Positions 7,084-19,675 of a DNA stretch of 21,993 bases are shown in pieces (within the stretch, counting starts at the first letter, position 1; every line of letters starts with the position of its first letter). The notes beneath the pieces are model-generated. The model worked only from the letters and a program-made list of their open reading frames with translations, was not told where the DNA came from and did not search any database. A program made the translations under genes and the position numbers. Source of the DNA: Clostridia bacterium (GTDB taxonomy: Bacteria; Bacillota; Clostridia; Oscillospirales; Acutalibacteraceae). The DNA lies in the NCBI GenBank assembly GCA_017429345.1, contig JAFRPB010000153.1:1-21993 (forward strand). Reading direction: 5' to 3'.

Positions 7084-9084
7084 ATGCAGATACTGAAAGT
7101 CATTTTGTCGGCGCTCTTGTCTTTGATCAGCGTGTTTACGACGAACGGATTCGGCAAATATACGCCGCATCTCGCGGTGATCCCGGACCTCGTGCGCGTC
7201 GGTGCGGAGGCGCTGCGTCTGAACGTATGGGACGGCGCGCCGGATAAAAAAGAAGTCGCCGCGGCGCTTGAGAATGCAGAGGTCCCGCACCCCTTCGTGC
7301 TCGCGGGCGCGGAGCGGTTCGACCTTCTGCGCTTAGAGTTTGCTTCCGGCGGGGCCCCGGAATACGCTTCGGATCTTCTGAAGTACGTGCTCGCGAACGC
7401 GGACGCGCTGCTCGATACGCAGGTTTTCCCGCCCCTTGCCTACGAGCTCGACGAGGAGAACAGCATCCTGCCGATCTCCCGCGAGACCATGAACCGCATC
7501 GTGATCCTGGGCCTTGCGCGGCAGGTCACGGGCGAGGAAAAATATTTCACTCGCGCGTGGGAAGAGCTCGAGAACGTCTGCAATTATCCCGACTGGTGCA
7601 CCGGGCATTTTCTCGCCACCGCGGAGATGGCGCTCGCCGTCGCGGTCGGGTACGACTGGCTGTATGAGGATCTGACCGACGCGCAGCGCGATCTGCTCGC
7701 CGAAACGACGCTGCAGTACGCGATCAGGCCCGCGATCTCGGCGGTGAATACGGGAAAATGGTACACAACGACGAAGAACAACTGGAACAGCATCTGTTAC
7801 AGCGGTGTCGGCATCGCCTGTATGACGCTTGCGGACCGGTACCCCGCGGAGGCGGCGAAATACCTGGCGAGATGCTTTAAGTATATGCCCGCGGCGTATG
7901 AGAATTTCACGCCGGACGGCGTGTATATCGAGGGCCCGGGCTACTGCGAATCCGGCATGAACGCGATCGTGTATTTCATCGCCACGGCGCGGGAGCGCTT
8001 CGGCACCGATTTCGGCATGTCGGAGCTGCCCGGCTTCCGGGAGCTGGGCATGTTCCCGGTCTATATCTCCGGCAGCGTCGGCGAATTCAATTTCGGCGAC
8101 AACCGGAACCGCGCGTTTTATTCCCCCGCGCTGGACTGGTACGCGGCGAATTATAACGAGCCGCTGCTGGCGGTGCATCAGATGAGCGGCGGCGTGGGCG
8201 AATACGCCGCGGGAGAGCCGGTCTATACGGAATCGAACGGCGACGGCAGGGAGAACGCGCTCTCGGCGCTCTGGTACGACCGCTCGTTCACGGGCGACAG
8301 AGCGCAGTTCTCTTCGCAGCCGAAGAGCGTCTATCTGCGCTCCGACTGCGGGCAGGAGCTGGTGCTGATGCGCTCGGCGTATCTTGAAAAAAACGCGTTC
8401 TTCGTCGGGATGAAAGCGGGCGACAATTTCATCAATCACGGCGATCTCGATATCGGCACCTTCGTTTACGACGCGCTCGGCGAGCGCTGGGCGGCGGAGC
8501 TCGGTCCCGGACCCTACGACGCGCCGGGGTATTTCTTCAACCCGCCCGCGGGCGGCCGCTGGCGCAATTACTGCAAGCGCGCCGAGGGGCAGAATACGCT
8601 CGTGATCAATCCGGATATGACGCTTGACGATCAGTACGCGCTCGCGCGGTGCGTATTCTCCGACGTGGAGATCGGCGACGGCGGCGGCGCGTGCCGGATC
8701 GATCTGACGGACGCCTACCGCATGAACGGCGCGATAAGCGCGGTGCGTTCGTTCGCCTTCGACGCGGATACCGGCGCGCTGACGGTCGCGGACGAGGTCA
8801 AATGCCTTGTGAAAAGCGATATTTACTGGTTCATGCACACCCGCGCCGCGATCGAAATTTCCGAAGACGGCAAAACAGCCGTGCTGAAGCAGAACGGCAA
8901 ACAGATCACGGCCGTTCTCTCGGGCGACGGCGAATTCTCCGTGCGGGAATGCGAATCGCTTAAACCGAATTACGTTTATCCCGAAACGCACGACGGCGTG
9001 CGCAGACTGACCGTCGCGCTCACCGGCGTGCGCGAGGCGAATATTTCGGTACGGCTGGCGCCGGAAATCAGAATATGGAGATAG
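7084..9084 (+). CDS. Secreted heparinase II/III-like polysaccharide lyase family protein (666 aa)
   Basis: N-terminal signal peptide (MQILKVILSALLSLISVFT). Central (alpha/alpha) toroid-type motifs (WNSICYSGVGIACMTLAD) and a C-terminal beta-sandwich with NHGDLDIGTFVYDALGERW, typical of the heparinase II/III-like (alginate/heparin lyase) fold. Divergent from the GH3 operon. Confidence 0.55.
   Translation: MQILKVILSALLSLISVFTTNGFGKYTPHLAVIPDLVRVGAEALRLNVWDGAPDKKEVAAALENAEVPHPFVLAGAERFDLLRLEFASGGAPEYASDLLKYVLANADALLDTQVFPPLAYELDEENSILPISRETMNRIVILGLARQVTGEEKYFTRAWEELENVCNYPDWCTGHFLATAEMALAVAVGYDWLYEDLTDAQRDLLAETTLQYAIRPAISAVNTGKWYTTTKNNWNSICYSGVGIACMTLADRYPAEAAKYLARCFKYMPAAYENFTPDGVYIEGPGYCESGMNAIVYFIATARERFGTDFGMSELPGFRELGMFPVYISGSVGEFNFGDNRNRAFYSPALDWYAANYNEPLLAVHQMSGGVGEYAAGEPVYTESNGDGRENALSALWYDRSFTGDRAQFSSQPKSVYLRSDCGQELVLMRSAYLEKNAFFVGMKAGDNFINHGDLDIGTFVYDALGERWAAELGPGPYDAPGYFFNPPAGGRWRNYCKRAEGQNTLVINPDMTLDDQYALARCVFSDVEIGDGGGACRIDLTDAYRMNGAISAVRSFAFDADTGALTVADEVKCLVKSDIYWFMHTRAAIEISEDGKTAVLKQNGKQITAVLSGDGEFSVRECESLKPNYVYPETHDGVRRLTVALTGVREANISVRLAPEIRIWR
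9064..9078 (+). repeat. Degenerate copy (13/15) of the motif, gaaatcagaatatgg, inside the last codons of the lyase gene.
   Basis: Shares the exact 10-mer aaatcagaat plus a following tgg with the 13260-13274 copy. Chance expectation for a 10-mer in 22 kb is ~0.04. Confidence 0.3.
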
Positions 9085-9111
9085 GAGGTTCGGAAGTAGG
9101 AGGTTCGGAAG
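9082..9111 (+). repeat. Perfect tandem duplication of the 15-mer TAGGAGGTTCGGAAG (two SD-like GGAGG elements), beginning at the lyase stop codon.
   Basis: 9082-9096 and 9097-9111 are identical. They are followed by the palindrome aagtcgcttcgcgactt (9109-9125). Confidence 0.6.
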
Positions 9112-9270
9112 TCGCTTCGCGACTTGAATAGAAGAGAGAGTAAAGGAAAAACCGTTGCAAATCATAACAATTTTGCTTGTTTTACCGTTTCTATAATTGG
9201 GGTATGGGGCGGAGCCCCATCATTACCTCCTCCCTCCTCCTTCCTACTTCCTCCTTCATCGGGCGCAGCC

Positions 9271-9286
9271 CGATAAATCAGAATTT
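9271..9286 (+). repeat. Copy 2 of the CGATAAATCAGAATTT motif. Single half-site immediately 5' of the RBS of the first WYL-like gene.
   Basis: Exact 16-mer. GAAAGGAG RBS begins 1 nt after the motif, ATG at 9300. Confidence 0.6.
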
Positions 9287-9299
9287 GAAAGGAGTCTCC

Positions 9300-10520
9300 A
9301 TGCCCTACCAAGAGCTGATCAAAAATTTTTCCCGGGTACGGGCGTACCTGCGCCAGTTTTACGTTTACGGCTTCCGCAGCCGGAGCGAATTCGACGAAAA
9401 AAGCGCCCGTTCCTATGACGATGAGCGCCGCCGGGTCGAAAGCTGGCTGAGGGAGTACGTGTCCGCCCGCCGCACGCCGGAGGGAAAGAATATCTATATC
9501 TCCGTTGACAGCCGCCGCAGGAGCCGTGATCCTCTTTACCGGGTGTGGAAAACGAAGAGCTTCACCGACGGCGATATCACCTTGCACTTTCTGATCTTTG
9601 ACGTTCTTTATACGCCAACGGCGGCGCTGACTGTAACCGGGATCCTTTTGGGGATCGATGAGCGGCTTTCCGCATTTCCTTCGGCGAAGACCTTCGACGA
9701 GTCCACCCTGCGCAAAAAGCTGGAGGAGTACGTCCGGGAGGGACTGATCGTAAAAGAGAAAAAAGGCAGAGCCGTGTTTTACCGGCGCGCGCAGGGAACG
9801 CCGCTGCCCGAGGCGGACGCGCTGGCGTTTTTCTCCGAAGCTGCGCCCTGCGGCGTGATCGGCTCTTTCCTTGAGGATAAGACCGATGAGCGTCCGGAGC
9901 ATTTTTTATTCAAGCATCATTATATCACCCAGACGGCGGACAGCGAGATCCTTTGCCGCGTCTTCGAGGCGATCTCCGACCGGCGGGAGCTGATCTCCGT
10001 TTCCCGACACCGGGAATCGCTCGCGCGCGTCCTGCCGCTGCGGGTCTATATCAGCGTGCAGGGCGGCAGACAGTATCTGGCGGCTTACGACTTCGATATG
10101 AAACGCGTCGTTTTTCAGCGAATAGACCTGATCGAGTCCGTCGCTGCGGGGCCGGTTTGCGGGGAGTTTGAAACGTACCGGAGAAAACTGGACGGGCTTG
10201 CGCCGCATATCTGGGGCGTAAGTCTCTCCGGCAGAGCGCTCGAGCACGTCGATTTTACGATCCGTTATGAAGACGACGAGCCCCATATTCCCCTGCGCCT
10301 CGAGCGGGAAAAACGCTGCGGAACGGTGGAGCGGCTGAATGCGAATGAAAGCCGCTTTTCCGCCGGGCTGTACGACGCGGGGGAGCTGATTCCATGGATG
10401 CGCACATTTATCGGCAGGATTACGGAGTATCACTTCTCAAGTCCGAAGCGGGAAGAGCGGTTCCGGGAGGATCTGGAACGGATGTATGCACAGTACGGGA
10501 TCGGAGGCGACGAAGAATGA
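9300..10520 (+). CDS. WYL/WCX-like putative ligand-sensing transcriptional regulator, paralog 1 (406 aa)
   Basis: Start at MPYQELIK (RBS AGGAG 7 nt upstream); the longer ORF-track start has no RBS. Central wHTH-like segment (TFDESTLRKKLEEYVREGLIVKEKKGRAVFY). WYL-like strand motif KRVVFQRIDLIESV. C-terminal WCX-like tail ELIPWMRTFIGRITEY. Stop overlaps the next start (ATGA). Family assignment rests on motif recognition, not a search. Confidence 0.5.
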   Translation: MPYQELIKNFSRVRAYLRQFYVYGFRSRSEFDEKSARSYDDERRRVESWLREYVSARRTPEGKNIYISVDSRRRSRDPLYRVWKTKSFTDGDITLHFLIFDVLYTPTAALTVTGILLGIDERLSAFPSAKTFDESTLRKKLEEYVREGLIVKEKKGRAVFYRRAQGTPLPEADALAFFSEAAPCGVIGSFLEDKTDERPEHFLFKHHYITQTADSEILCRVFEAISDRRELISVSRHRESLARVLPLRVYISVQGGRQYLAAYDFDMKRVVFQRIDLIESVAAGPVCGEFETYRRKLDGLAPHIWGVSLSGRALEHVDFTIRYEDDEPHIPLRLEREKRCGTVERLNANESRFSAGLYDAGELIPWMRTFIGRITEYHFSSPKREERFREDLERMYAQYGIGGDEE

Positions 10521-11431
10521 CCTTTTTCAGCGAGCTTTACGGCGCTTATTACAACGCTGTCGCGAAGATCCTTGCCGCCGCCGTGCAAAGCCCCGTGACG
10601 AAGGAGGATATCCGCCGCATCGTGCGGGAGAACGCCTTCGCCGAAAGCGGGATTGAGATCGAATCGGCGATCTTCGCGCGATGGCAGCTGCTTGACGAGC
10701 GGGGCGGAACGCCGCTTCGGCATGTGCCCACGACACCCCTGACGCATCTGCAGAAGCGTTGGCTCAAGGCGGTCTCTCTTGACCCGCGTCTTGCGCTATT
10801 TGACGCGCCTTTTCCGGAGCTCAAGGGTGTGGAGCCGTTGTTTCAACCGGAGGATATCTGTGTGTTCGACCGTTTCACGGACGGCGACCCCTATGGGGAC
10901 GAAACCTATATTCGCATATTCCGCATTATGATGAGCGCGGTGCGGGAGCGGACGCCGCTTTACGTCGAGATGCTTGCCCCGAGAACAGGTGCGCGGAAAA
11001 TGATTCTGCTGCCCCTGAAGCTGGAATATTCTGAAAAGGACGATAAATTCCGTCTGCTTGCGGCGGACGGCAGGGGAGAGGTTACATTGAATCTGGCGCG
11101 GGTCACGCTGTGCCGTCCCTATGACGGTGCGCCGGTGCATTTTGCGAACCCGGCGGATTTTGCCGGCAATCGGGAAGAACGCAACTTTGTGCTTGAACTG
11201 ACGGAAGAGCGCAACACTCTTGAGCGGGTGATGCTGCATTTCGCCCATTTCAGAAAGGAAGCCCGGCGGGCGGAGAACGGCAGATATCTTGTAAGAGTCT
11301 TTTACGAGCGTCCGGACGAGACGGAGCTGGTGATCCGCGTGCTCTCATTCGGCCCCACCGTGACCATCCGCGAACCGGACCGGTTCGCCGGACTGGTGAG
11401 AGAACGGCTTTTGAAACAGTATAAATTCTGA
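10517..11431 (+). CDS. WYL/WCX-like putative regulator, paralog 2 (304 aa), translationally coupled to paralog 1 (PafB/PafC-like pair)
   Basis: C-terminus LVIRVLSFGPTVTIREPDRFAGLVRERL closely matches the conserved WCX tail of WYL regulators (...[VI]LSFGP-V-VLEP-ELRE...). WYL-like segment LPLKLEYSEKDDKFRLLAADG...LNLARVTLCR. GGAGG 10 nt upstream. Stop TGA lies inside motif copy 3. Confidence 0.5.
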   Translation: MTFFSELYGAYYNAVAKILAAAVQSPVTKEDIRRIVRENAFAESGIEIESAIFARWQLLDERGGTPLRHVPTTPLTHLQKRWLKAVSLDPRLALFDAPFPELKGVEPLFQPEDICVFDRFTDGDPYGDETYIRIFRIMMSAVRERTPLYVEMLAPRTGARKMILLPLKLEYSEKDDKFRLLAADGRGEVTLNLARVTLCRPYDGAPVHFANPADFAGNREERNFVLELTEERNTLERVMLHFAHFRKEARRAENGRYLVRVFYERPDETELVIRVLSFGPTVTIREPDRFAGLVRERLLKQYKF

Positions 11432-11486
11432 TTTATCGTTCTGCCGTGATACCATGTGCGCTTGACTCCGCGACAAATCAGAATTT
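11423..11486. repeat. Inverted pair of the motif (AAATTCTGATTTATCG ... CGACAAATCAGAATTT) around a 32-nt spacer. The left arm overlaps the WYL paralog-2 stop codon.
   Basis: 11423-11438 is the exact reverse complement of the 16-mer. 11471-11486 is a 15/16 copy (T to C at position 4) in direct orientation. Confidence 0.6.
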
Positions 11487-11491
11487 AACTT

Positions 11492-11527
11492 CGCATCTTT
11501 TTTTCCGTGAAAAAGGTGCGTTTTTTT
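11492..11527 (+). terminator. Rho-independent terminator after the WYL gene pair: stem cgcatcttttt / aaaaaggtgcg (one G-U), 7-nt loop, then TTTTTTT.
   Basis: Inverted repeat 11492-11502 / 11510-11520 followed by a T7 run at 11521-11527. Confidence 0.5.
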
Positions 11528-11535
11528 GTTATACT
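11527..11535 (+). promoter_or_regulatory. Extended -10 element TGtTATACT immediately after the terminator. Candidate promoter for the long leader/SPFH transcript.
   Basis: TG at -15/-14 followed by TATACT. Weak -35 (cgtgaa). The downstream ~430 nt carry no credible ORF before the SPFH start. Confidence 0.3.
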
Positions 11536-11962
11536 CTTCCTGCAGGATCGCCAGAGCGGGCGCTTCGCGGGAAGCCGCGGCGCTGCGGTGCACAGGATGA
11601 TATCCTTTTTATGTATGCCGGCGATGCTGCGGCGCGTGATAAGCGCATCGTGCAAGGCCGCACATTATTGCGGGTTCGACTCCCGCCGCGAGCAAATCGT
11701 GACCGATGGTTGGTGTTTATTGAGGAACTGCATTTTATGCGTCAGTTGCACAGAAAAAAGAAACGGCGTTCCGGCGAATCGATGCGGAAAATCTTCTCCC
11801 GCGTTTTCGCAGCGCGGACGGAGCCCTGCCTTTCGGCGGATACCGCTTTGCAAAACGGAAGACCGAATTATCCGTCTTTCGCCGGTCGAAGCTCAAGCCG
11901 GGAGCCGCCCCGTCGGCGCGGAACGCCGCGACGCGATCAACCTTTTAGGAGGAATATATATT

Positions 11963-13072
11963 ATGAAAAAAAGTATGATCAAAAAGACCGTCGTTCACGA
12001 GAACGAAAGAGGCCTGCTGTTCAAAAACGGCAGGTTCGTCCGCAGGCTCCTGCCGGGCAGATACTACGCCGTCGGCGACAGCGAGATCGAAACGCTGCCC
12101 GTGTCCGCGCCGCTGCGATCGGCGTTCTGTGAGACGCAGACGCTTCTGCGCGACCCGCAGATCGCTTCGGAGACCGCCCGCGTGGACGTTCGCGACAGAC
12201 AGAGGGCGCTGCACTATGCGGATGGCAGGTTCAAAGAGCTGCTTCCCGTCGGTACACACGTATTCTGGACCGCCGCCGGCGCACACGAATTCCGCGTGCT
12301 GGACGCCTCCGTTCCCGATCTGCCGGAGGATTTTCCCCGCGACATTCCGGCTGACATTCTCGGCAGTGACGTCTGCACGTTTGTGATCCATGCCGAAGAG
12401 GTAGGACTGCTGTTCGTCAACGGCAGGTTCGACCGTCTGTTGGAAGCCGGCGTCCACGCGTTTTGGGATCTGCCTGAGTTCCGGGTCTCCGTACGCTGCA
12501 GCGATACTCAGCTGCAGCAGATGAATATCTCCTCGCAGGAGCTGCTGACCGCAGACCGGGTCACGATCCGCGTCAATTTTGTGGTCGGCTGGCGCGTCAC
12601 CGACCACGTCCGTGCGGCGTTGGAGCTGGACAATCAGACAGAACTGCTTTACACCGCCGCGCAGCTGGTGCTGCGGGAGGTCGTCGGCAAATACCGCCTT
12701 GACGAGCTTCTGGAACATAAAGAGGCCCTCTCCGGCGAGGCGCTGGAGCTGCTGCGCAAAAAAGCGGAGTCCCTCTTCGCCGAGGTGACCGACGCGGGCG
12801 TAAAGGATATCATTCTGCCCGGCGAGGTGCGGGATATCATGAACACTGTCCTGGTGGCGGAAAAGCGCGCGCAGGCCAACGTCATTACCCGCCGTGAAGA
12901 GGTCGCTTCCACCCGTTCGCTGCTCAACACGGCGAAAATGATGGAAGAGAATCCCACGCTTTATAAGCTCAAGGAGCTGGAATATGCGGAGCGCATCTGC
13001 GAGAACGTGGGAAATATCAACCTCAACGGCGGGGACCTGCTCGGCGGGCTACTGGCGGTGTTGGGAAGGTAA
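11963..13072 (+). CDS. Cytoplasmic SPFH/band-7 (stomatin-prohibitin-flotillin-HflKC) domain protein with a triplicated N-terminal motif (369 aa)
   Basis: AGGAGG RBS 10 nt upstream of ATG 11963; the 5' extension of the ORF track is Arg/Cys-rich junk. SPFH core (RVNFVVGWRVTDHVRAALELDN...LREVVGKYRLDELLEHKEAL...VKDIILPGEV...AEKRAQANVITRREE), then a coiled-coil tail. Three N-terminal repeats of G-LLF-NGRF---LL-G-H-FW. No N-terminal TM helix. Confidence 0.65.
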   Translation: MKKSMIKKTVVHENERGLLFKNGRFVRRLLPGRYYAVGDSEIETLPVSAPLRSAFCETQTLLRDPQIASETARVDVRDRQRALHYADGRFKELLPVGTHVFWTAAGAHEFRVLDASVPDLPEDFPRDIPADILGSDVCTFVIHAEEVGLLFVNGRFDRLLEAGVHAFWDLPEFRVSVRCSDTQLQQMNISSQELLTADRVTIRVNFVVGWRVTDHVRAALELDNQTELLYTAAQLVLREVVGKYRLDELLEHKEALSGEALELLRKKAESLFAEVTDAGVKDIILPGEVRDIMNTVLVAEKRAQANVITRREEVASTRSLLNTAKMMEENPTLYKLKELEYAERICENVGNINLNGGDLLGGLLAVLGR

Positions 13073-13107
13073 ATTCTGATTTATCGCGGAGCGATAAATC
13101 AGAATTT
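13071..13107. repeat. Perfect 37-bp palindrome built from two inverted motif copies, AAATTCTGATTTATCGC-GGA-GCGATAAATCAGAATTT, starting inside the SPFH stop codon.
   Basis: Read directly; both 17-nt arms are exact reverse complements with a 3-nt spacer. Stop TAA at 13070-13072. Confidence 0.7.
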
Positions 13108-13252
13108 AGTCCCGAGTTTCAAGCCCCGAGTCTCGATGCGATAATTTTCAGTCAGGATAATAAATGGAAAAACGTATTGTTTCCTGCTGTTTTACCAAGA
13201 CGCACGAGCTTACCTCACGTATCTCGGAACTCGGAACTCGGGACTCGGGACT
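13108..13252. repeat. Inverted arrays of the heptamer CTCGGRA flanking an 85-bp AT-rich core: two copies on the left in reverse orientation, four perfect tandem copies on the right.
   Basis: Left arm agtcccgagtttcaagccccgagtctcg (13108-13135). Right arm ctcggaa ctcggaa ctcggga ctcggga (13223-13250). The right arm is immediately followed by motif copy 5. Confidence 0.5.
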
Positions 13253-13256
13253 TTAT

Positions 13257-13272
13257 CGATAAATCAGAATTT
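13257..13272 (+). repeat. Copy 5 of the CGATAAATCAGAATTT motif. Single half-site immediately 5' of the RBS of the hypothetical gene, embedded in the local palindrome TTTATCGATAAA.
   Basis: Exact 16-mer. GGAAGGAG RBS starts 1 nt after, ATG at 13286. Same motif-RBS-ATG layout as at 9271. Confidence 0.6.
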
Positions 13273-13285
13273 GGAAGGAGAAGCC

Positions 13286-13840
13286 ATGAAACATACTGTC
13301 GACCGCGGAGAGCTTTGGGACGCATGTAATTATTCCTTTCAATATGCTGATAAGTTTCCCACACGATATTATAATATCAACGACGAACGCATCGAAGCGC
13401 TTGAGGATGTTCTCGTCGCGCTGAATATTCCACAGACCCGATTTCAGACTTATTATTATGATTACGATTATATCCCCATTCCCGTGACGCCGCTGGTGCC
13501 CGCGCTGAAAGCCTACGTCGAAACGGTGAACGATAAAAACATCCGCCGTGCGCTGCGCGACGTGCCGGATGACAGATACGAATGCGCTTTTAACCGTATC
13601 TGTTGGGATGACCGGGAATTCCGTCACGGCTGGAATGAGTTTTCCGCGGATATCGTAAACGGGGTCTGTGAGCGGTGGTGCGCGGAATACAATGTGACGC
13701 CGATCCGGGATCCCAGATGCGCATGGACCGGGGAAAAAGACAGGGAGTTCAATGCCGCTTCCGCCCGCAGAATGCAGAAAGAATATGAAGCGTCGAAAGG
13801 GCGGTTCCGAAGATATCGGAAAGAAAAGAGCAAATATTGA
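13286..13840 (+). CDS. Hypothetical Cys/Trp-rich protein with a basic C-terminal tail (184 aa), no recognisable family
   Basis: Good RBS (AGGAG, 5-nt spacer). Codon usage consistent with neighbours. Conserved-looking Cys pairs (CAFNRICW, VCERWCAEY, PRCAWTG) and a KGRFRRYRKEKSKY tail. Directly upstream of the rtcB remnant with an 24-nt gap. Confidence 0.45.
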   Translation: MKHTVDRGELWDACNYSFQYADKFPTRYYNINDERIEALEDVLVALNIPQTRFQTYYYDYDYIPIPVTPLVPALKAYVETVNDKNIRRALRDVPDDRYECAFNRICWDDREFRHGWNEFSADIVNGVCERWCAEYNVTPIRDPRCAWTGEKDREFNAASARRMQKEYEASKGRFRRYRKEKSKY

Positions 13841-13864
13841 ATTTTTAAAGGAAGTGAACCGGAA

Positions 13865-14192
13865 TGATTGCCGTTTACGGAAAATACAATACAGCCCTTT
13901 GCTACTGCTCCGTTTCGGAGGAGGCTGCGGCGGAGCAGATCAGAACGATTTGCGACAGGGCGAGTTCGCGGCTTCGTGTATCCGCATCATGCCCGACGTG
14001 CACGCCGGCAAAGGCTGCACCATCGGCACAACGATGACGCTGACCGACAGGGTCGTGCCCGCGATGGTCGGCGTCGATATCGGCTGCGGAATGCTCACGG
14101 TCAAGCTGAACGCGCGGGAGCTTGACTTTGCCCAGATGATCATCTGCCGCTGCGGTTCCGTAACAGGGGGCGTGCAGTTTATGGAGAAATAA
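13865..14192 (+). pseudogene. rtcB: RtcB RNA-ligase remnant: N-terminal ~110 codons only, with a -1 frameshift near 13950, then truncation
   Basis: Frame-2 start MIAVYGKYNTALCYCSVSEEAAAEQIRTICD continues in frame 0 as (Q)GEFAASCIRIMPDVHAGKGCTIGTTMTLTDRVVPAMVGVDIGCGM. This matches the N-terminus of bacterial RtcB (MPDVHxGxG...VGVDIGCGM). Re-reading the shared c at the junction restores ...ICDQGEFAASCIRIM. The ORF ends ~35 codons after GCGM, whereas intact RtcB is ~400-480 aa. Followed by a terminator and a low-GC gene on the opposite strand. Confidence 0.6.
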
Positions 14193-14224
14193 TATTGGCT
14201 CACCGATTTTTTTTTACAACTCAA

Positions 14225-14260
14225 AAGCCGAGAATCACCAAAGTCAGTGGTTCTCGGCTT
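14225..14260. terminator. Rho-independent terminator (10-bp stem aagccgagaa / ttctcggctt) shared by the convergent rtcB remnant and the membrane-protein gene.
   Basis: Perfect stem around a 16-nt loop. The minus-strand RNA continues UUUUGAG. The plus strand has T9 just before the stem. Confidence 0.6.
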
Positions 14261-14300
14261 CTTTGACGCTGTTTATTTACATCCTTTTATTTACTTTGAT

Positions 14301-15950
14301 TTAAGGAGTTGTCATAATCTGAACTAAAATAACATCTTTGTTTTCAATAATACGAAATCGGCTTGTCGGATCGTTTGCAACAACCATTTTTCTTGCTTCT
14401 GCCTTTTGCTCCGCGGAACAGGATTGCAGCGAATATCCCAACCTCTGCATGACCCGCAGGTAATTATCATTATAAGCCCATCCTATATAAGAAGTGTACG
14501 CAGTAAACGAATCGGCAATTTGATCTGCAAGTTCTTCCGAGGATCGGAATACATATCCATAACCCCGCACTTTATCATAGAATCTTTTCGGCAGAACATT
14601 ATCAAACAACAAAGCTGAATATTTTCTGTACTGTGTCATTATAAGATTCGGCTCGTTTTTGGAATGCCGCAAGCTTTCGGGAAGTTGATAGTTTTCCGCC
14701 GAAAACACAACCGGCTTGCTTTGCGTATCATATTCGAGCAGCTCTTTTCCTATATCCTGCAGCAGAGAGATCTCATAAGTGTGTCTTTCAAAATTATCAA
14801 CTGCGTAATTATTGATATCTTTCGTTTGATTTAAAACGATTACCACCAGCACACATGAAATAACAATGTGCAGTTTTTTGTTTTGGCGGCAATACAGAAA
14901 CAACAGCATAATGACAAACGCAACAAAAACGGAAAGCGTCTGCATCTGTCTGAATTCAACCATACGCCCAATGAGCAGCGGAAGCGAAACCACAGACAGA
15001 CACAATATGATAAAAATGCATGCGGGGAACAAGGATCGTTTTTTCACGGAAAGCAAAACAGCCCCTGTCGTTCCGATAACGACGGTAACAAGAAACATCA
15101 GCAAAAACGGAAGAGAAATGCTGCCGATAACAAATGAGGTGAACATCATAACGATAAACCGAACCAGATTTTTGATCGGAGCTCCGGACAGCCAATATAT
15201 TTTAGTATTCGGCTCATACCAAAATTTCGTTGTACCGCAAATGACAAGATTGACCAGCTTTGATATGATAAGATCTACAATAACAGCTGCAAGCAGCAGG
15301 CCGACAGCCATCGCAGCAAGAACAAGATAATCCTTTATACCTGCTGTTGTTCGGTTATCATAATAAAAAAACAGCAAAAGAGACGCAAAAAAACCAACCA
15401 AATATACACTCGCAAAAGATTCGTACATATCTACGGCGGGAATCAACGCAAGCAAAGAAATAACTAACCGTTTTACAAGGTGTTTTTTGTCAGCAAATCC
15501 CAAATAGAGCTGGCAGAGTGAAACAGGAACCAGAACGTATGCCAAAACGATATTAAGAACCGGATACGTCAGCTGTGCGGTAATCACGGGATAGGATACA
15601 AAAACCGTACCAAACGCAATTTGCGCCGATTGGGGAATTTTATCTCCGGATACGACTGAAAACAATACGGACCACGCAACAGATGCACAAAAGAGAATAA
15701 TCGCCGTTAATGCAGTATGCCAGAACGGGGCAAAATTCATCCAATTTGTTAACAAATGAATCAAAGGCGTCGCCCATCTGCCGGCACCGACCAATATGGA
15801 TCCATTGTAATACTCCGGCATCAGCTGATCAATATGGATTGAGTAGTGACTTGCATAAAAGCCATAAGAGAGTATCAGCGTAATGACAACGGATATTATG
15901 TACCCCTTATTGCGGGACAAAAACGATAAAACAGAATTCGGTTGGTTCAT
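14301..15950 (-). CDS. Polytopic integral membrane protein (>=11 predicted TM helices plus ~170-aa C-terminal soluble domain), possible GT-C-fold glycosyltransferase-like. Low-GC, likely horizontally acquired.
   Basis: Long hydrophobic segments throughout (e.g. YIISVVITLILSYGFY, LTAIILFCASVAWSVLFSVV, LLLAAVIVDLIISKLVNLVI). GC ~42% versus ~60% around it. Start placed at MNQPNSV (15950), which has GGAG 6 nt upstream; the ORF-track start MEYYM (15962) has no RBS. Functional call is by architecture only. Confidence 0.55.
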   Translation of the reverse strand: MNQPNSVLSFLSRNKGYIISVVITLILSYGFYASHYSIHIDQLMPEYYNGSILVGAGRWATPLIHLLTNWMNFAPFWHTALTAIILFCASVAWSVLFSVVSGDKIPQSAQIAFGTVFVSYPVITAQLTYPVLNIVLAYVLVPVSLCQLYLGFADKKHLVKRLVISLLALIPAVDMYESFASVYLVGFFASLLLFFYYDNRTTAGIKDYLVLAAMAVGLLLAAVIVDLIISKLVNLVICGTTKFWYEPNTKIYWLSGAPIKNLVRFIVMMFTSFVIGSISLPFLLMFLVTVVIGTTGAVLLSVKKRSLFPACIFIILCLSVVSLPLLIGRMVEFRQMQTLSVFVAFVIMLLFLYCRQNKKLHIVISCVLVVIVLNQTKDINNYAVDNFERHTYEISLLQDIGKELLEYDTQSKPVVFSAENYQLPESLRHSKNEPNLIMTQYRKYSALLFDNVLPKRFYDKVRGYGYVFRSSEELADQIADSFTAYTSYIGWAYNDNYLRVMQRLGYSLQSCSAEQKAEARKMVVANDPTSRFRIIENKDVILVQIMTTP

Positions 15951-16187
15951 GTAATACTCCATGAATTATTATAATCAACAGCCCACACGAAAACGGGTGT
16001 TTCTTCTTTCAGCAGAGGGAGATCCGCGCCTCGTTCCCCATTTATAAATAACGGTGTCGGACGCTCATATTTTTTCATCGGGTACGGGCAGAGGTCGTCC
16101 GCCATATGGCGCAGCCGCATATCACACGCGAAACGTATATCATCCGCAGTAGGCGAATATCATTCGGCAACGCCGAATATCATTGCA

Positions 16188-16233
16188 AAATTCTGGTTTA
16201 TCGAGGCATGAATGCCTCGATAAACCAGAATTT
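16188..16233. repeat. 46-bp near-perfect palindrome made of two inverted variant motif copies, AAATTCTGGTTTATCGAGGCAT-GA-ATGCCTCGATAAACCAGAATTT, ending 3 nt from the ddh stop codon.
   Basis: Both 22-nt arms are exact reverse complements. The core differs from the other copies by one base (ACCAGAATTT vs ATCAGAATTT). On the minus-strand RNA the stem is followed by AAUUUUGC, so it may also terminate ddh. Confidence 0.65.
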
Positions 16234-17474: not shown

Positions 17475-19301
17475 ATGTGCGGAATTATCGGTTACGTCGG
17501 CGGGAACCCCGCGCTCCCGCGGCTGATCAACGGTCTGAAAAAACTCGAATACAGAGGCTACGACTCTGCGGGGATCTCATTTTTCACCGAGGCGGGCGTC
17601 GTGACGGTCAAGGCGGAGGGACGCATCGCGAACACAGAGGCGCTGCTGCAGCGCGGCTTCCCCGACGCCCAAAGCGTCTGCGGCGTCGGGCACACCCGCT
17701 GGGCGACCACGGGCAAGCCCAGCGACGCGAACGCGCACCCGCACCGCGTCGGCGCGGTCACGGTGGTGCACAACGGCATCATCGAAAATTATAAGGCGCT
17801 GAAAAAAGAGTGCGAGGCGGCGGGCAGGGTCTTCCGTTCGCAGACCGACACTGAGGTGATCGCGGCGCTGGCGGATATCGTTTATGCGCAGTGCGGCGAC
17901 CCGGTCAAAACGCTGCACAGGGTCATATCCCGGCTTGAAGGCTCGTTCGCGGTCGCGGCGCTGTTCGACGATCGGGAAAATACGGTCTACGGCTTCCGAA
18001 AAGACAGTCCGCTGATCGTCGCCGAGACCGAAGACGGCAATTATTTCGCATCCGATTTTATCGCGGTGAAGCATGCGACCGATACCTACCGCCTCCCCGA
18101 CGAGGAAACGGTCGTCGAACTGACCGCGGCAGGCGCGCGGTATTATACCGCCGACGGCGGGACCGCCCCGCCCGCGCCGATCCGCGTTACGGACGCGAAC
18201 CGCGACGACGGCAAGGGAGATTTCCCGCATTTCATGCTGAAAGAGATCTTTGAAGTCCCGGACGCGATCCGCAACACCTGCCGCGACCGCGTATGCGAAG
18301 GGCTGCCCGCGTTCGACGACGAGATCCTCGGGCGTCTTGCGGCGTCGGGACGCATCTATATCGTCGCCTGCGGCACGGCGCTGAACGCCGGGAAGCTCGG
18401 CAAAGGGTATATCGAGAAATTCGCCCGCATCCCCGTCTCGTGCGAGCTCGCGTCGGAGCTGCGGTATTTTCCGCCGCTGTATGACGAAGGCGACAGCTTT
18501 ATTTTCATCAGTCAGTCCGGCGAGACCGCGGACACCGTCGCGTCGCTGCGTATGCTCAAAGAACGCGGGATCTACACCGTAGCGCTCGTGAATACGCCGA
18601 ATTCCACCATCGCCCGCGAGGCGGACGGCGTGCTCTACACCCGCGCGGGGACGGAGACCGCGGTCGCGAGCACCAAGGCGTATAACGCGCAGAGCGCGCT
18701 GCTGTTCCTGCTGGCGCTCGGACTCGGCCTGCAAAAGGGCAGCATAACGGAAAAAACGGCGGCGAAACTGACGGCGGATCTGACGCGGGGCGTTCCCGCC
18801 GCGGTCGAAAAGATCCTCGCCGACGCGGAGAAGATCCGCGCGTTCAGCGAAAAATACTGCACCGCGCCGAGCTGCTTCTTCCTCGGCAGAGGACCGGATT
18901 TCTGCCTTGCGGAGGAGAGCTCCCTCAAGCTCAAGGAGATCTCGTATATCCACTGCGAAGCTTACGCCGCGGGCGAGATCAAGCACGGCACGATCGCGCT
19001 GATCGAAAAGGACGTGCCGGTGATCGCGATCATCTCGGGCGATAAGATCCGCAGCAAGACGATCAACAATGCGTTCGAGGTCAAGGCGCGGGACGCGAAG
19101 GTCCTGACCGTGACCGACCGGCGCGTGCCGGGCGAGGAGGAGACCGCGGACGATATCTACGTCGTCGACAGCCCGGACGAGTCGCTGTTCCATATCCCGG
19201 CGGCGACGTTCTTCCAGCTGTTCGCGTATTATACCGCCCTCGGCAGAGGACGCGACGTCGACAAGCCGCGGAATCTCGCCAAGTCGGTGACGGTGGAGTG
19301 A
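17475..19301 (+). CDS. glmS: Glutamine--fructose-6-phosphate aminotransferase (isomerising), 608 aa
   Basis: Starts MCGIIGY (N-terminal catalytic Cys of Ntn amidotransferases). Two SIS domains (SQSGETADT...). C-terminal ...KPRNLAKSVTVE. GGAGGG 8 nt upstream. Confidence 0.9.
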   Translation: MCGIIGYVGGNPALPRLINGLKKLEYRGYDSAGISFFTEAGVVTVKAEGRIANTEALLQRGFPDAQSVCGVGHTRWATTGKPSDANAHPHRVGAVTVVHNGIIENYKALKKECEAAGRVFRSQTDTEVIAALADIVYAQCGDPVKTLHRVISRLEGSFAVAALFDDRENTVYGFRKDSPLIVAETEDGNYFASDFIAVKHATDTYRLPDEETVVELTAAGARYYTADGGTAPPAPIRVTDANRDDGKGDFPHFMLKEIFEVPDAIRNTCRDRVCEGLPAFDDEILGRLAASGRIYIVACGTALNAGKLGKGYIEKFARIPVSCELASELRYFPPLYDEGDSFIFISQSGETADTVASLRMLKERGIYTVALVNTPNSTIAREADGVLYTRAGTETAVASTKAYNAQSALLFLLALGLGLQKGSITEKTAAKLTADLTRGVPAAVEKILADAEKIRAFSEKYCTAPSCFFLGRGPDFCLAEESSLKLKEISYIHCEAYAAGEIKHGTIALIEKDVPVIAIISGDKIRSKTINNAFEVKARDAKVLTVTDRRVPGEEETADDIYVVDSPDESLFHIPAATFFQLFAYYTALGRGRDVDKPRNLAKSVTVE

Positions 19302-19314
19302 ATTTCGGTTTAGG

Positions 19315-19415
19315 TCGTGAAGTCGTGAAATCGTGAAGTCGAGAGGTCTTGAAGTCGATGACCGATGCCTGATCGGCTGTCAGCTATCCGCTGTCGGCTA
19401 TCTGAGATCGGCTAT
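19315..19415 (+). repeat. Two adjacent degenerate tandem-repeat blocks directly after the glmS stop: six copies of the 8-mer GTCGTGAA, then three copies of the 14-mer CGGCTGTCAGCTAT.
   Basis: gtcgtgaa gtcgtgaa atcgtgaa gtcgagag gtcttgaa gtcgatga (19315-19362). cggctgtcagctat ccgctgtcggctat ctgagatcggctat (19374-19415). Confidence 0.5.
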
Positions 19416-19675
19416 TGTTCATGACCGAATTATACGAAAAACGTCCGTGCATGTCCGTTTTAATCGTTTGTTATTGTTTGATTGTCGAAATTTTTATATT
19501 GACAATTAAAAAATGTCCTACACAATATAATTAATATTATGAAAGTACCCCGGAAATCTCATTCATACCCGAAAAATAAACTGCTCACGCGGAACGGTGA
19601 AAAAAGCGGTTGACATGAGAATTCAAAGATGATAAAAAGGAAACAGAGATATCATCCGGAGGTAGTGATAAGAAA

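What the first reader, a model, noticed from the sequence alone, without database searches (positions are those of the whole stretch)
11963..14192. Candidate RtcB-linked stress/RNA-repair or defence-type module: SPFH protein, Cys/Trp-rich DUF and rtcB, each preceded by the shared motif
Downstream of the WYL pair, three genes in the same orientation are each preceded by a copy of the motif: an atypical soluble SPFH/band-7 protein, an unassignable 184-aa Cys/Trp-rich protein with a basic tail, and rtcB. This suggests one regulon. RtcB operons in bacteria are induced by RNA damage (RtcR/CARF-type regulators). WYL-domain regulators have been reported linked to rtcB in genomes lacking RtcR. An SPFH protein and this DUF are not part of described Rtc operons, so the combination may be an undescribed variant of an RNA-damage response or abortive-infection-type module.
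Basis: inference. Interest (0 to 1): 0.7.

Follow-up and report, generated by a model that had tools for sequence, protein, structure and literature searches.

The report
Decayed Band-7/RtcB RNA-repair operon with repeats
This is a broken copy of an already predicted bacterial RNA-repair operon (two WYL regulators, a tRNA-like RNA, a Band-7 protein and the RtcB ligase); the "shared motif" is a genome-wide repeat rather than a regulatory signal, and the 184-aa gene is a foreign insertion.

Summary
The three co-oriented ORFs exist, but the finding holds only in part. The motif CGATAAATCAGAATTT lies directly before only the 184-aa ORF. It is 477 nt upstream of the SPFH gene and absent before rtcB. 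It is a REP-like palindromic repeat, also found beside EF-G and DAP-dehydrogenase genes in this window and on many contigs of several rumen Clostridia MAGs. So it defines no regulon.

Comparative genomics does show a conserved module: WYL/WCX pair, a 21-nt operator-promoter (TTCGCANCTTTTTTTCCGTGA-N19-TAnnnT; window 11490-11535), a structured leader RNA with a tRNA-like T-arm, a soluble Band-7 protein, then RtcB. The Band-7 plus tRNA-like RNA plus RtcB combination was already predicted as an RNA-repair system by Burroughs and Aravind (2016).

In this window the module is decayed. rtcB keeps 92 of about 402 codons, is frameshifted, and is cut off by low-GC foreign DNA. The 184-aa ORF has compositionally foreign GC3. 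Distant relatives (≤32% identity) were seen in two unrelated contexts, and it is absent from the other Band-7–RtcB loci.

Verdict: a degenerate member of a known kind, of low to moderate interest. By-products: the operator, the leader RNA (no Rfam match) and the repeat family.

The parts
9300..10520 (+). First gene of the regulator pair (406 aa), a divergent wHTH-WYL protein
   Evidence: Pfam WYL in 5 of 5 orthologues (best 3.7e-8). The window protein itself scores 0.026, below the cut-off. A profile search of PDB gives only a weak hit to PafC (E 0.59). The gene sits upstream of the operator in 64 of 79 informative loci.
10517..11431 (+). Second gene of the pair (304 aa), WYL + WCX; its last 3 codons and stop codon lie inside a repeat copy
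   Evidence: PADLOC WYL model 5.8e-8 over residues 127-298. Pfam WCX in 5 of 5 orthologues, best 1.6e-7. The C-terminus '...KQYKF*' is encoded by TAT AAA TTC TGA within the repeat.
11423..11486 (.). REP-like inverted pair of 16-mers with a 32-nt spacer, inserted between the WYL2 end and the operator
   Evidence: (I15). In other loci an imperfect inverted half-site of the operator lies here (28 of 107). No such half-site was seen by eye at this position in the window; this was not counted.
11490..11535 (+). Conserved operator-promoter: TTCGCATCTTTTTTTCCGTGA, then -35-like GTGAAA, a 17-nt spacer and TG-TATACT
   Evidence: Single copy in the window with 0 expected by chance. TAnnnT lies exactly 19 nt after the motif in 95 of 107 unique loci. 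The promoter scan finds GTGAAA-17-TATACT at 11507-11535.
11543..11946 (+). Structured leader / non-coding RNA with a tRNA-like module: P1 stem 11587-11619, T-arm GCGGG-TTCGACT-CCCGC 11670-11686, conserved GGATACCG block 11838-11845
   Evidence: Conserved blocks across loci. RNAalifold predicts 15 pairs, 8 of them with compensatory changes. An nhmmer profile built without the window hits only 11661-11715, E 2.4e-5, and its strong hits are only in Band-7 loci. No Rfam match and no ARAGORN tRNA.
11963..13072 (+). Soluble SPFH/Band-7 ('slipin family') protein, 369 aa, with N-terminal repeated beta-segments
   Evidence: Pfam Band_7 5.9e-30. PDB stomatin 1.3e-16. More than 6000 homologues. dN/dS 0.25 against the 78%-identical orthologue in L250. 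No transmembrane segment.
13071..13272 (.). Composite REP-like element: perfect hairpin 13071-13107, low-complexity arm, core, complementary arm, terminal motif copy 13257-13272
   Evidence: I2, I12; MFE -75.1 kcal/mol, z -5.4. The same architecture occurs in many MAG loci. GC is 0.42.
13286..13840 (+). Lineage-specific 184-aa ORF inserted between Band-7 and rtcB; distant UPF0158-like family, function unknown
13864..14138 (+). rtcB pseudogene remnant: codons 1-92 of about 402, with a frameshift near 13965
   Evidence: tblastn with the intact RtcB of L122. The same lesion is present in L001, L116 and L117, and the start of the remnant is seen at the end of L118.
14139..16113 (-). Low-GC foreign segment that replaces the rest of rtcB; it carries a GtrII-family membrane protein gene (14301-15962, - strand)
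   Evidence: Pfam Glucos_trans_II 1.2e-12. GC 0.41 and GC3 0.43.
16114..16233 (-). Another repeat copy: perfect 22-bp hairpin 16188-16233 abutting tandem small hairpins that resemble Gut-1 RNA
   Evidence: I3; RF01706, 46.3 bits, below the gathering score of 50.

Best explanation
The locus is a degenerate copy of the Band-7/SPFH, tRNA-like RNA and RtcB RNA-repair operon, under a PafBC-like pair of WYL/WCX regulators.

Intact form, as seen in relatives. The two regulator genes are followed about 20 nt later by a 21-nt site, TTCGCANCTTTTTTTCCGTGA. Its 3' end forms a -35-like GTGAAA hexamer at a fixed 17-nt distance from a -10 box. Transcription from there yields a leader of roughly 400 nt that contains a tRNA-like T-arm and covarying stems. 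Then come a soluble Band-7 protein and the RtcB 3'-phosphate/5'-OH RNA ligase, sometimes followed by an RlaP nucleotidyltransferase.

Inferred mechanism. The WYL pair senses a nucleic-acid damage signal and activates this promoter from the site abutting -35. The Band-7 oligomer with its tRNA-like RNA then acts as scaffold or cofactor for RtcB-mediated religation of cleaved tRNA or rRNA.

State in this genome. Three events have degraded the operon. (1) REP-like palindromic repeats, which are dispersed genome-wide in this clade, invaded the intergenic regions. They supply the stop codons of WYL2 and Band-7 and lie where other loci carry the operator's upstream half-site. (2) A compositionally foreign 184-aa ORF was inserted, together with a composite repeat, between Band-7 and rtcB. 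(3) rtcB was frameshifted and truncated after codon 92 by insertion of low-GC DNA carrying a GtrII-type gene.

Shown here: gene identities, synteny, operator conservation and spacing, RNA covariation, the dispersed nature of the repeat, and the rtcB lesion. Inferred: regulator-operator binding, the inducing signal, and the scaffold role.
For: Synteny. WYL-partner-gap-Band_7-RtcB is seen in L121/L122, L126 and L128. L127 has Band_7-RtcB-RlaP without the WYL pair.

Operator. A WYL pair is adjacent in 64 of 79 loci with at least 1 kb upstream. RtcB lies within 3 kb downstream in 23 of 38 loci with at least 3.6 kb downstream: 10 directly, 5 via Band-7 and 8 via a DUF2828/DUF7788 protein. TAnnnT sits at a fixed +19 in 95 of 107 unique loci. 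The window has one exact copy against 0 expected and a matching promoter call.

Leader RNA. 8 of 15 predicted pairs show compensatory changes. The profile built without the window hits only 11661-11715, E 2.4e-5, and otherwise only Band-7 loci.

Prior description. bioRxiv 10.1101/312249, citing Burroughs and Aravind 2016, states that RtcB is encoded next to a Band-7 protein and a predicted band 7-associated tRNA.

Repeat. 12 hits against 1.96 expected in the window, including sites next to EF-G and DAP-dehydrogenase genes. It is multi-copy in RUG14340, RGIG5665, RUG340, JAZSAA01 and other MAGs.

Insertion and decay.. The ORF's distant relatives lie in unrelated contexts.
Against: - The Burroughs and Aravind paper is not in the held library. 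Equivalence of this leader RNA to their 'b7a-tRNA' therefore rests on a secondary citation and on the T-arm, and ARAGORN does not call a tRNA.
- The window's RNA copy is divergent. The CCAAA/TTTGG segments seen in other loci are altered, and the profile hit covers only the T-arm region.
- Binding of the WYL pair to the 21-nt site is inferred from position only.
- 15 of 79 operator-bearing loci lacked a WYL pair within 400 nt, although three of them (L130, L133, L166) have one about 0.6-2.1 kb away. 15 of 38 lacked RtcB within 3 kb, so the regulon is broader or looser than a strict operon.
- Band-7 is still under purifying selection (dN/dS 0.25). It therefore may retain an RtcB-independent role, as in L129 and L241, where no RtcB follows.
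Confidence: 0.8

Rival explanations
1. One reading: SPFH, the 184-aa protein and RtcB form one new regulon or defence module, defined by the shared motif and controlled by the WYL pair through that motif.
For: The motif lies directly upstream of the RBS of both WYL1 (9273-9286) and the 184-aa ORF (13259-13272), with a similar downstream context, CGATAAATCAGAATTTGRAAGGAG...ATG (D2). The genes are co-oriented.
Against: The motif is absent before rtcB and lies 477 nt from SPFH. It occurs next to unrelated genes and genome-wide in several MAGs. It is absent from the orthologous loci L122, L126-L129, which instead share the 21-nt operator. The 184-aa gene is not co-conserved. No PADLOC hits for the SPFH protein, the 184-aa protein or RtcB.
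Confidence: 0.03
2. The 184-aa ORF has been recruited as a functional new partner of Band-7, for example replacing the lost RtcB function or acting as a toxin/immunity or RNA-binding factor. The locus would then be a remodelled, still functional system.
For: The ORF is intact in all same-species contigs. Between strains it shows 8 synonymous against 4-5 non-synonymous changes, dN/dS about 0.15. It gives a confident fold (pLDDT 85), has a strong RBS and a basic C-terminal helix. Band-7 is under purifying selection.
Against: No relative of the ORF was found next to Band-7 or RtcB. The two relatives examined lie between a cysK-like gene (identified by eye only) and an aminotransferase gene, and in a run of small ORFs. 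GC3 is foreign. No informative fold or family match. The substitution counts are too small for a firm dN/dS.
Confidence: 0.1
3. The repeat elements are functional transcription or RNA-processing signals (terminator plus promoter/5'-UTR cassettes) that now drive expression of the downstream genes. The reader's motif would then have a regulatory role, but a generic one.
For: Hairpin copies sit immediately after stop codons, and terminal copies sit immediately before an RBS, in many genomes. The composite elements fold into long stems with z-scores of -5.4 and -3.1. Arm sequences differ between copies while staying complementary.
Against: The hairpins lack a T-tract and the terminator scan does not call them. 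No promoter was called inside the 9063-9286 or 13071-13272 elements. The complementary arms could equally reflect a DNA-level transposition structure.
Confidence: 0.25

Closest known systems
[quoted passage not shown]
   Same: A soluble Band-7 protein lies immediately upstream of RtcB in relatives. A tRNA-like structured RNA lies upstream of Band-7. RlaP nucleotidyltransferase follows in some loci.
   Different: Here rtcB is a 92-codon frameshifted remnant, and a foreign ORF plus a repeat element separate it from Band-7. The RNA is part of a leader of roughly 400 nt that is not recognised as a tRNA by ARAGORN. The original description could not be read, so the WYL pair and the operator may or may not be part of it.
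RtcR-controlled rtcBA, and rsr-yrlBA-rtcBA of Salmonella (Hughes et al. 2020, PMC7790460)
   Same: An RtcB ligase operon with a scaffold protein and a tRNA-mimicking non-coding RNA, induced by a dedicated ligand-sensing regulator. In sister loci the same operator drives a DUF2828/DUF7788 protein in the position of Rsr/Ro60.
   Different: None of the proteins scanned matched RtcR or RtcA (the scans cover 12 of the window's ORFs; glmS and DAP-dehydrogenase were identified by eye), and sigma-54 elements were not searched for. The regulator is a WYL/WCX pair acting at a sigma-70-type promoter, and the scaffold is Band-7 rather than Ro60.
PafBC (actinobacterial WYL-domain heterodimeric activator of the DNA-damage regulon)
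   Same: Two adjacent paralogous HTH-WYL-WCX-type genes. A conserved upstream site lies at a fixed distance from a TAnnnT -10 box and takes the place of a canonical -35. The comparison with the PafBC promoter layout is from my own knowledge.
   Different: Sequence similarity is marginal (PafC E 0.59). The site sequence is different, the target is an RNA-repair operon, and the organism is a Firmicute. The ligand is unknown.
REP/BIME/REPIN elements of Proteobacteria and Correia elements of Neisseria
   Same: Short perfect palindromes, intergenic, multi-copy, often right after stop codons, and combined into mosaic elements with inverted arms.
   Different: The sequence is different and the host is a clade of rumen Clostridia. 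The arms are low-complexity repeats with a period of about 7 nt that differ between copies while remaining complementary. An associated transposase (RAYT) was not looked for.
Gut-1 RNA motif (RF01706; Weinberg et al. 2010, PMC2864571)
   Same: Tandem small hairpins separated by UGAUAU/UGAAAU-type linkers at 16114-16185 (- strand) align over the full model.
   Different: The score of 46.3 is below the gathering score of 50. Here the hairpins form one arm of a composite repeat that abuts the 22-bp palindrome.

Membership tests
Band-7/b7a-tRNA/RtcB RNA-repair system (Burroughs and Aravind 2016) | Soluble SPFH/Band-7 protein encoded next to RtcB | tested here: met
   Band_7 5.9e-30 and no transmembrane segment. 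The RtcB remnant is 792 nt downstream here. The two genes are directly adjacent in L122, L126, L127 and L128.
Band-7/b7a-tRNA/RtcB RNA-repair system (Burroughs and Aravind 2016) | tRNA-like non-coding RNA associated with the Band-7 gene | tested here: inconclusive
   A homologous structured RNA with a GGTTCGA T-arm and covarying stems lies upstream of Band-7. ARAGORN calls no tRNA. The published b7a-tRNA alignment could not be consulted.
Band-7/b7a-tRNA/RtcB RNA-repair system (Burroughs and Aravind 2016) | Intact RtcB ligase | tested here: not met
   Only codons 1-92 remain, with a frameshift. The same lesion is present in L001, L116 and L117.
Canonical Rtc operon (RtcR-RtcA-RtcB) | RtcR (CARF-AAA+-HTH, sigma-54 dependent) regulator and RtcA cyclase adjacent | tested here: not met
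   None of the window proteins scanned and 19 matches RtcR or RtcA. The neighbours are a WYL pair, Band-7 and an unrelated GtrII-family gene.
PafBC-like WYL regulator pairs | Two adjacent genes with HTH-WYL-WCX architecture | tested here: met
   WYL in 5 of 5 WYL1 orthologues (3.7e-8), with the window copy sub-threshold at 0.026. WYL2 hits the PADLOC WYL model at 5.8e-8 and Pfam WCX in 5 of 5 orthologues.
PafBC-like WYL regulator pairs | Binds a conserved promoter-proximal site and activates on a nucleic-acid signal | not testable with these tools
   Only positional evidence is available: the site lies about 20 nt after WYL2 and at a fixed 19 nt from the -10 box.
REP/BIME-type dispersed palindromic repeats | Short palindrome, intergenic, many copies across the genome | tested here: met
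   Seven clusters of copies in 22 kb.
REP/BIME-type dispersed palindromic repeats | Cognate RAYT/IS200-like transposase in the genome | not tested
   The source genome is not available beyond the window.
UPF0158 (PF03682), for the 184-aa ORF | Significant match to the family profile | tested here: inconclusive
   The window protein has no hit. 3 of 11 alignment members hit weakly, best E 9e-4.
Gut-1 RNA (RF01706) | Score at or above the Rfam gathering threshold | tested here: not met
   46.3 bits against a threshold of 50.
Known anti-phage defence systems (PADLOC) | Component proteins match defence-system models | tested here: not met
   Only the generic WYL model hits WYL2. The SPFH protein, the 184-aa ORF and RtcB have no hits.

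The most novel reading that the evidence does not exclude
The WYL/WCX pair together with the 21-nt TTCGCANCTTTTTTTCCGTGA-N19-TAnnnT promoter may be an undescribed, RtcR-independent switch. It appears widespread in gut and rumen Firmicutes. It would drive three interchangeable RtcB cassettes: RtcB alone, a DUF2828/TROVE-like protein with its own RNA plus RtcB, and Band-7 with a roughly 400-nt tRNA-like leader plus RtcB. The leader would then be a new structured RNA family absent from Rfam. Separately, the composite palindrome, low-complexity arm, core, arm, palindrome elements may be a new class of Clostridial mosaic repeat to which Gut-1 belongs.
Probability: 0.3. Interest if true: 0.55.

Novelty: new member of a known kind. 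Interest (0 to 1): 0.3.

Why it matters
As submitted, the finding does not reveal a new system. It is a pseudogenised copy of a predicted RNA-repair operon, and the linking motif is a repeat.

Its value lies in what the comparison exposed.
- A sharply defined operator-promoter and regulator pair for RtcB operons in Firmicutes. This makes it directly testable by EMSA or reporter assays what induces RtcB in bacteria that lack RtcR.
- Independent comparative support, with covariation, for the never-validated Band-7-associated tRNA-like RNA.
- A clear example of how dispersed repeats and foreign insertions dismantle such an operon. This warns against inferring regulons from shared intergenic motifs in repeat-rich genomes.

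Tried and rejected
- ARAGORN on the window and five orthologous loci found no tRNA or tmRNA.
- Rfam at E up to 1 (window) and up to 10 (L122) found nothing in the leader.
- The word-indexed protein search for the 184-aa ORF found only a same-species copy. The exhaustive search found ten distant relatives.
- PHROGs and PADLOC gave nothing for the ORF family.
- Sequence searches of PDB with the WYL proteins alone gave nothing.
- I considered an integron attC or gene-cassette reading for the palindromes flanking genes. I rejected it because copies occur next to core genes (EF-G, DAP dehydrogenase) and as composite elements.
- I considered a sigma-H-type -10 (GAAT) reading of the motif. I rejected it because no consistent -35 is present and many copies are in inverted pairs.
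- I considered that the T-arm marks a tRNA-fragment attachment site of an integrated element. I rejected it because the same RNA is conserved upstream of Band-7 in 20 or more loci.
- The Burroughs and Aravind paper could not be retrieved by DOI or PMC id.
- BLASTN of the window against the fetched GTDB loci found no conspecific genome.
Full report
**What is at the coordinates.** The region holds three co-oriented ORFs on the + strand.
- ORF 11963-13072 (369 aa) is an SPFH/Band-7 protein. Pfam Band_7 scores 5.9e-30 and PDB stomatin 1.3e-16. No hydrophobic segment is long enough for a membrane anchor, with a maximum KD19 of 1.27.
- ORF 13286-13840 (184 aa) has no Pfam, NCBIfam, PHROGs or PADLOC match.
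- The third ORF is only a remnant of rtcB. tblastn with an intact orthologue places codons 1-34 at 13864-13965. After a frameshift, codons 35-92 lie at 13965-14138. Nothing homologous follows.
- From about 14139 the GC content falls from about 0.60 to 0.41, and a GtrII-family membrane-protein gene lies on the opposite strand.
- Three independent same-species metagenome contigs (L001, L116, L117) carry the identical lesion, and L118 ends inside the remnant. It is therefore a fixed pseudogene and not a sequencing error.

**The 'shared motif'.** ATAAATCAGAATTT is strongly over-represented, with 12 matches at up to 3 mismatches against 1.96 expected. Its distribution does not fit the claim.
- It lies 13 nt before the ATG of the 184-aa ORF and equally close to the first WYL gene.
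- The nearest copy is 477 nt from the SPFH start.
- The 23-nt gap before rtcB has none.
- Copies also lie beside an EF-G gene (position 182) and a DAP-dehydrogenase-like gene (identified by eye; 16188-16233), and a degenerate copy lies beside a PHP-family gene (position 2467).

Most copies form perfect palindromes, AAATTCTGATTTATCG-loop-CGATAAATCAGAATTT, placed immediately after stop codons. The stop codons of WYL2 and of the SPFH gene lie inside the repeat.

Two larger composite elements (9063-9286 and 13071-13272) have the layout palindrome, low-complexity arm, core, complementary arm, terminal motif. They fold into long stems, with z-scores of -3.1 and -5.4.

It returned the motif on at least 7-9 separate contigs in each of several rumen Clostridia MAGs (RUG14340, RGIG5665, RUG340, JAZSAA01 and others). 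Single hits elsewhere are consistent with chance. In those MAGs the same palindromes and composite elements recur, with arms that differ in sequence between copies but stay complementary.

The motif is therefore a REP/BIME-like dispersed repeat.

**What is really conserved.** The SPFH protein has more than 6000 homologues, named 'slipin family protein' by NCBI. The gene neighbourhoods of five of them show a recurrent unit: a 417-418-aa WYL protein, a 302-304-aa partner, a 600-980-bp non-coding gap, Band-7, then RtcB of 402-407 aa separated by 12-150 bp, sometimes followed by RlaP.
- One locus lacks the WYL pair (L127).
- One locus lacks RtcB (L129).
- None contains the 184-aa gene.

The WYL assignment of the window's pair is weak for the proteins themselves but consistent across orthologues. 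Pfam WYL is found in 5 of 5 WYL1 orthologues (best 3.7e-8) and WCX in 5 of 5 WYL2 orthologues (best 1.6e-7). WYL2 also hits the PADLOC WYL model at 5.8e-8.

**The true operator-promoter.** All the gaps share a 21-nt block, TTCGCANCTTTTTTTCCGTGA. It occurs once in the window, at 11490-11510, with 0 expected by chance. After removing duplicates, 107 loci remained.
- The WYL pair is adjacent in 64 of 79 loci with at least 1 kb of upstream sequence: 60 have WYL2 ending within 400 nt on the same strand, and 4 have WYL1 divergent.
- RtcB follows within 3 kb in 23 of 38 loci with enough downstream sequence. In 10 it follows directly, in 5 behind Band-7, and in 8 behind a DUF2828/DUF7788 protein of about 490 aa with a DxSGS vWA-type motif.
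- A TAnnnT box lies exactly 19 nt after the block in 95 of 107 unique loci. The block's 3' end (GTGAAA) therefore sits at a 17-nt spacing from the -10 box.
- The promoter scan independently calls GTGAAA-17-TG-TATACT at 11507-11535.
- A subset of loci (28 of 107) has an inverted half-site about 10 nt upstream. In the window that position is occupied by the repeat pair 11423-11486.

This layout has a conserved activator-type site abutting a weak -35 at a fixed distance from TAnnnT, next to a WYL pair. From my own knowledge it is reminiscent of PafBC-dependent promoters.

**The missed RNA.** Downstream of the promoter, all Band-7 loci share a leader of roughly 400 nt with conserved blocks. An alignment of 15 leaders (A2) gives a consensus with a bulged stem P1 and a T-arm carrying the tRNA-like loop GGTTCGAAUCC. 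Eight of the 15 predicted pairs show compensatory changes. By eye, a hairpin 3' of the T-arm also covaries.

A sequence profile built without the window finds exactly one site in the window, 11661-11715 (E 2.4e-5). Its strong hits (E ≤ 1.8e-15) are all in loci with a Band-7 gene downstream, or in contigs (L208, L221) too short to show one; two marginal hits (E about 1e-3, L231 and L248) lie in loci with no Band-7 match. Rfam has no match and ARAGORN calls no tRNA.

**Relation to the literature.** bioRxiv 10.1101/312249 summarises Burroughs and Aravind (2016) as follows. In certain bacteria RtcB is encoded next to a Band-7 protein and a predicted, not experimentally validated, 'band 7-associated tRNA'. 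This parallels the Ro60/Y-RNA partners of RtcB. The original paper is not in the library.

From my own recollection, its abstract names SPFH/Band-7 and Rot/TROVE modules with cognate non-coding RNAs as scaffolds, plus a new nucleotidyltransferase. That matches the three cassette types and the RlaP gene seen here. I found no held paper linking WYL regulators to RtcB. Whether the regulator-operator pair has been described is therefore open.

**The 184-aa ORF.** It is real as a gene.
- It is intact in all same-species copies.
- Between strains it shows 8 synonymous against 4-5 non-synonymous differences.
- The AF2 model is confident, with pLDDT 85.

It is also compositionally foreign, with GC3 of 0.56 against 0.69-0.77 for its neighbours. 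It has only distant relatives (136-164 aa, at most 32% identity). Three of the 11 alignment members weakly match UPF0158. The two relatives I could place lie between a cysK-like gene (my reading of its C-terminal peptide) and an aminotransferase gene, and in a run of small unannotated ORFs. Neither is near Band-7 or RtcB. Fold searches gave nothing specific. It is best seen as a lineage-specific insertion that arrived together with a repeat element between Band-7 and rtcB.

A 78%-identical Band-7 orthologue from another species (L250) has the repeat both before the operator and after its stop codon. Repeat invasion of this locus therefore predates the split of the two lineages.

**Verdict.** The specific claims fail: that the motif defines a regulon, that the SPFH association is undescribed, and that the 184-aa protein is a component. 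The locus is a decayed member of a known, computationally predicted RNA-repair system. Band-7 remains under purifying selection (dN/dS 0.25), so it may retain an RtcB-independent role. The finding itself is of low interest. The operator, the leader RNA and the repeat family deserve separate follow-up.

Noticed in passing
window 11490-11535: A 21-nt site, TTCGCATCTTTTTTTCCGTGA, at a fixed 19 nt from a TAnnnT box is conserved in more than 100 gut and rumen metagenome loci. It lies between a WYL/WCX gene pair and RtcB operons of three types. It is a likely operator-promoter of an RtcR-independent RtcB regulon.
   Followed up: yes
window 11543-11946: A structured leader RNA with a tRNA-like T-arm (11670-11686) and covarying stems lies upstream of the Band-7 gene. 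It has no Rfam match. It is probably the 'b7a-tRNA' region of Burroughs and Aravind, embedded in a conserved RNA of roughly 400 nt.
   Followed up: partly
window 9063-9286, 13071-13272, 16114-16233; loci L054, L076, L089, L112 and others: A family of composite intergenic elements has the layout conserved palindrome, low-complexity arm with a period of about 7 nt, core, complementary arm, palindrome. Arm sequences differ between copies but stay complementary. The palindrome often supplies the stop codon (TAA or TGA) of the upstream gene.
   Followed up: partly
window 16114-16185 (- strand): A sub-threshold Gut-1 RNA match (46.3 bits against a gathering score of 50) directly abuts the 22-bp palindrome. 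Gut-1-type tandem hairpins may be one arm type of these repeat elements.
   Followed up: no
window 19300-19430: The intergenic stretch after glmS has similar low-complexity tandem units (gtcgtgaagtcgtgaaatcgtgaagtcg and gatcggctgtcagctatccgctgtcggct). They are flanked by GAATTTCGGTTTAG and GACCGAATTAT. This may be a diverged relative of the same repeat family.
   Followed up: no
window 14139-16113: A low-GC (0.41) segment with a GtrII-family glucosyltransferase-like membrane-protein gene on the - strand replaces the 3' three-quarters of rtcB. It looks horizontally acquired.
   Followed up: partly
loci L138, L139, L176, L185, L230, L238 (about +200 to +2100 from the operator): In these loci the same operator drives a DUF2828/DUF7788 protein of about 490 aa (vWA-type DxSGS motif), preceded by a different conserved leader block (…AAAGCGCAGACAGCAA…). 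RtcB follows, and in L138, with a remnant in L139, an RlaP-like ORF follows RtcB. This looks like a Ro60/Y-RNA-type alternative to Band-7.
   Followed up: partly
window 11492-11530: In this species and in L250 the operator region can also fold into a 12-bp hairpin followed by a T-run, which the scan calls terminator-like. The hairpin is not conserved in other loci.
   Followed up: no
L251 1953-2828: A distant relative of the 184-aa ORF lies immediately after another 138-aa ORF, in a run of small unannotated ORFs. Whether the two are paralogues was not tested. The arrangement is reminiscent of immunity-protein arrays.
   Followed up: no
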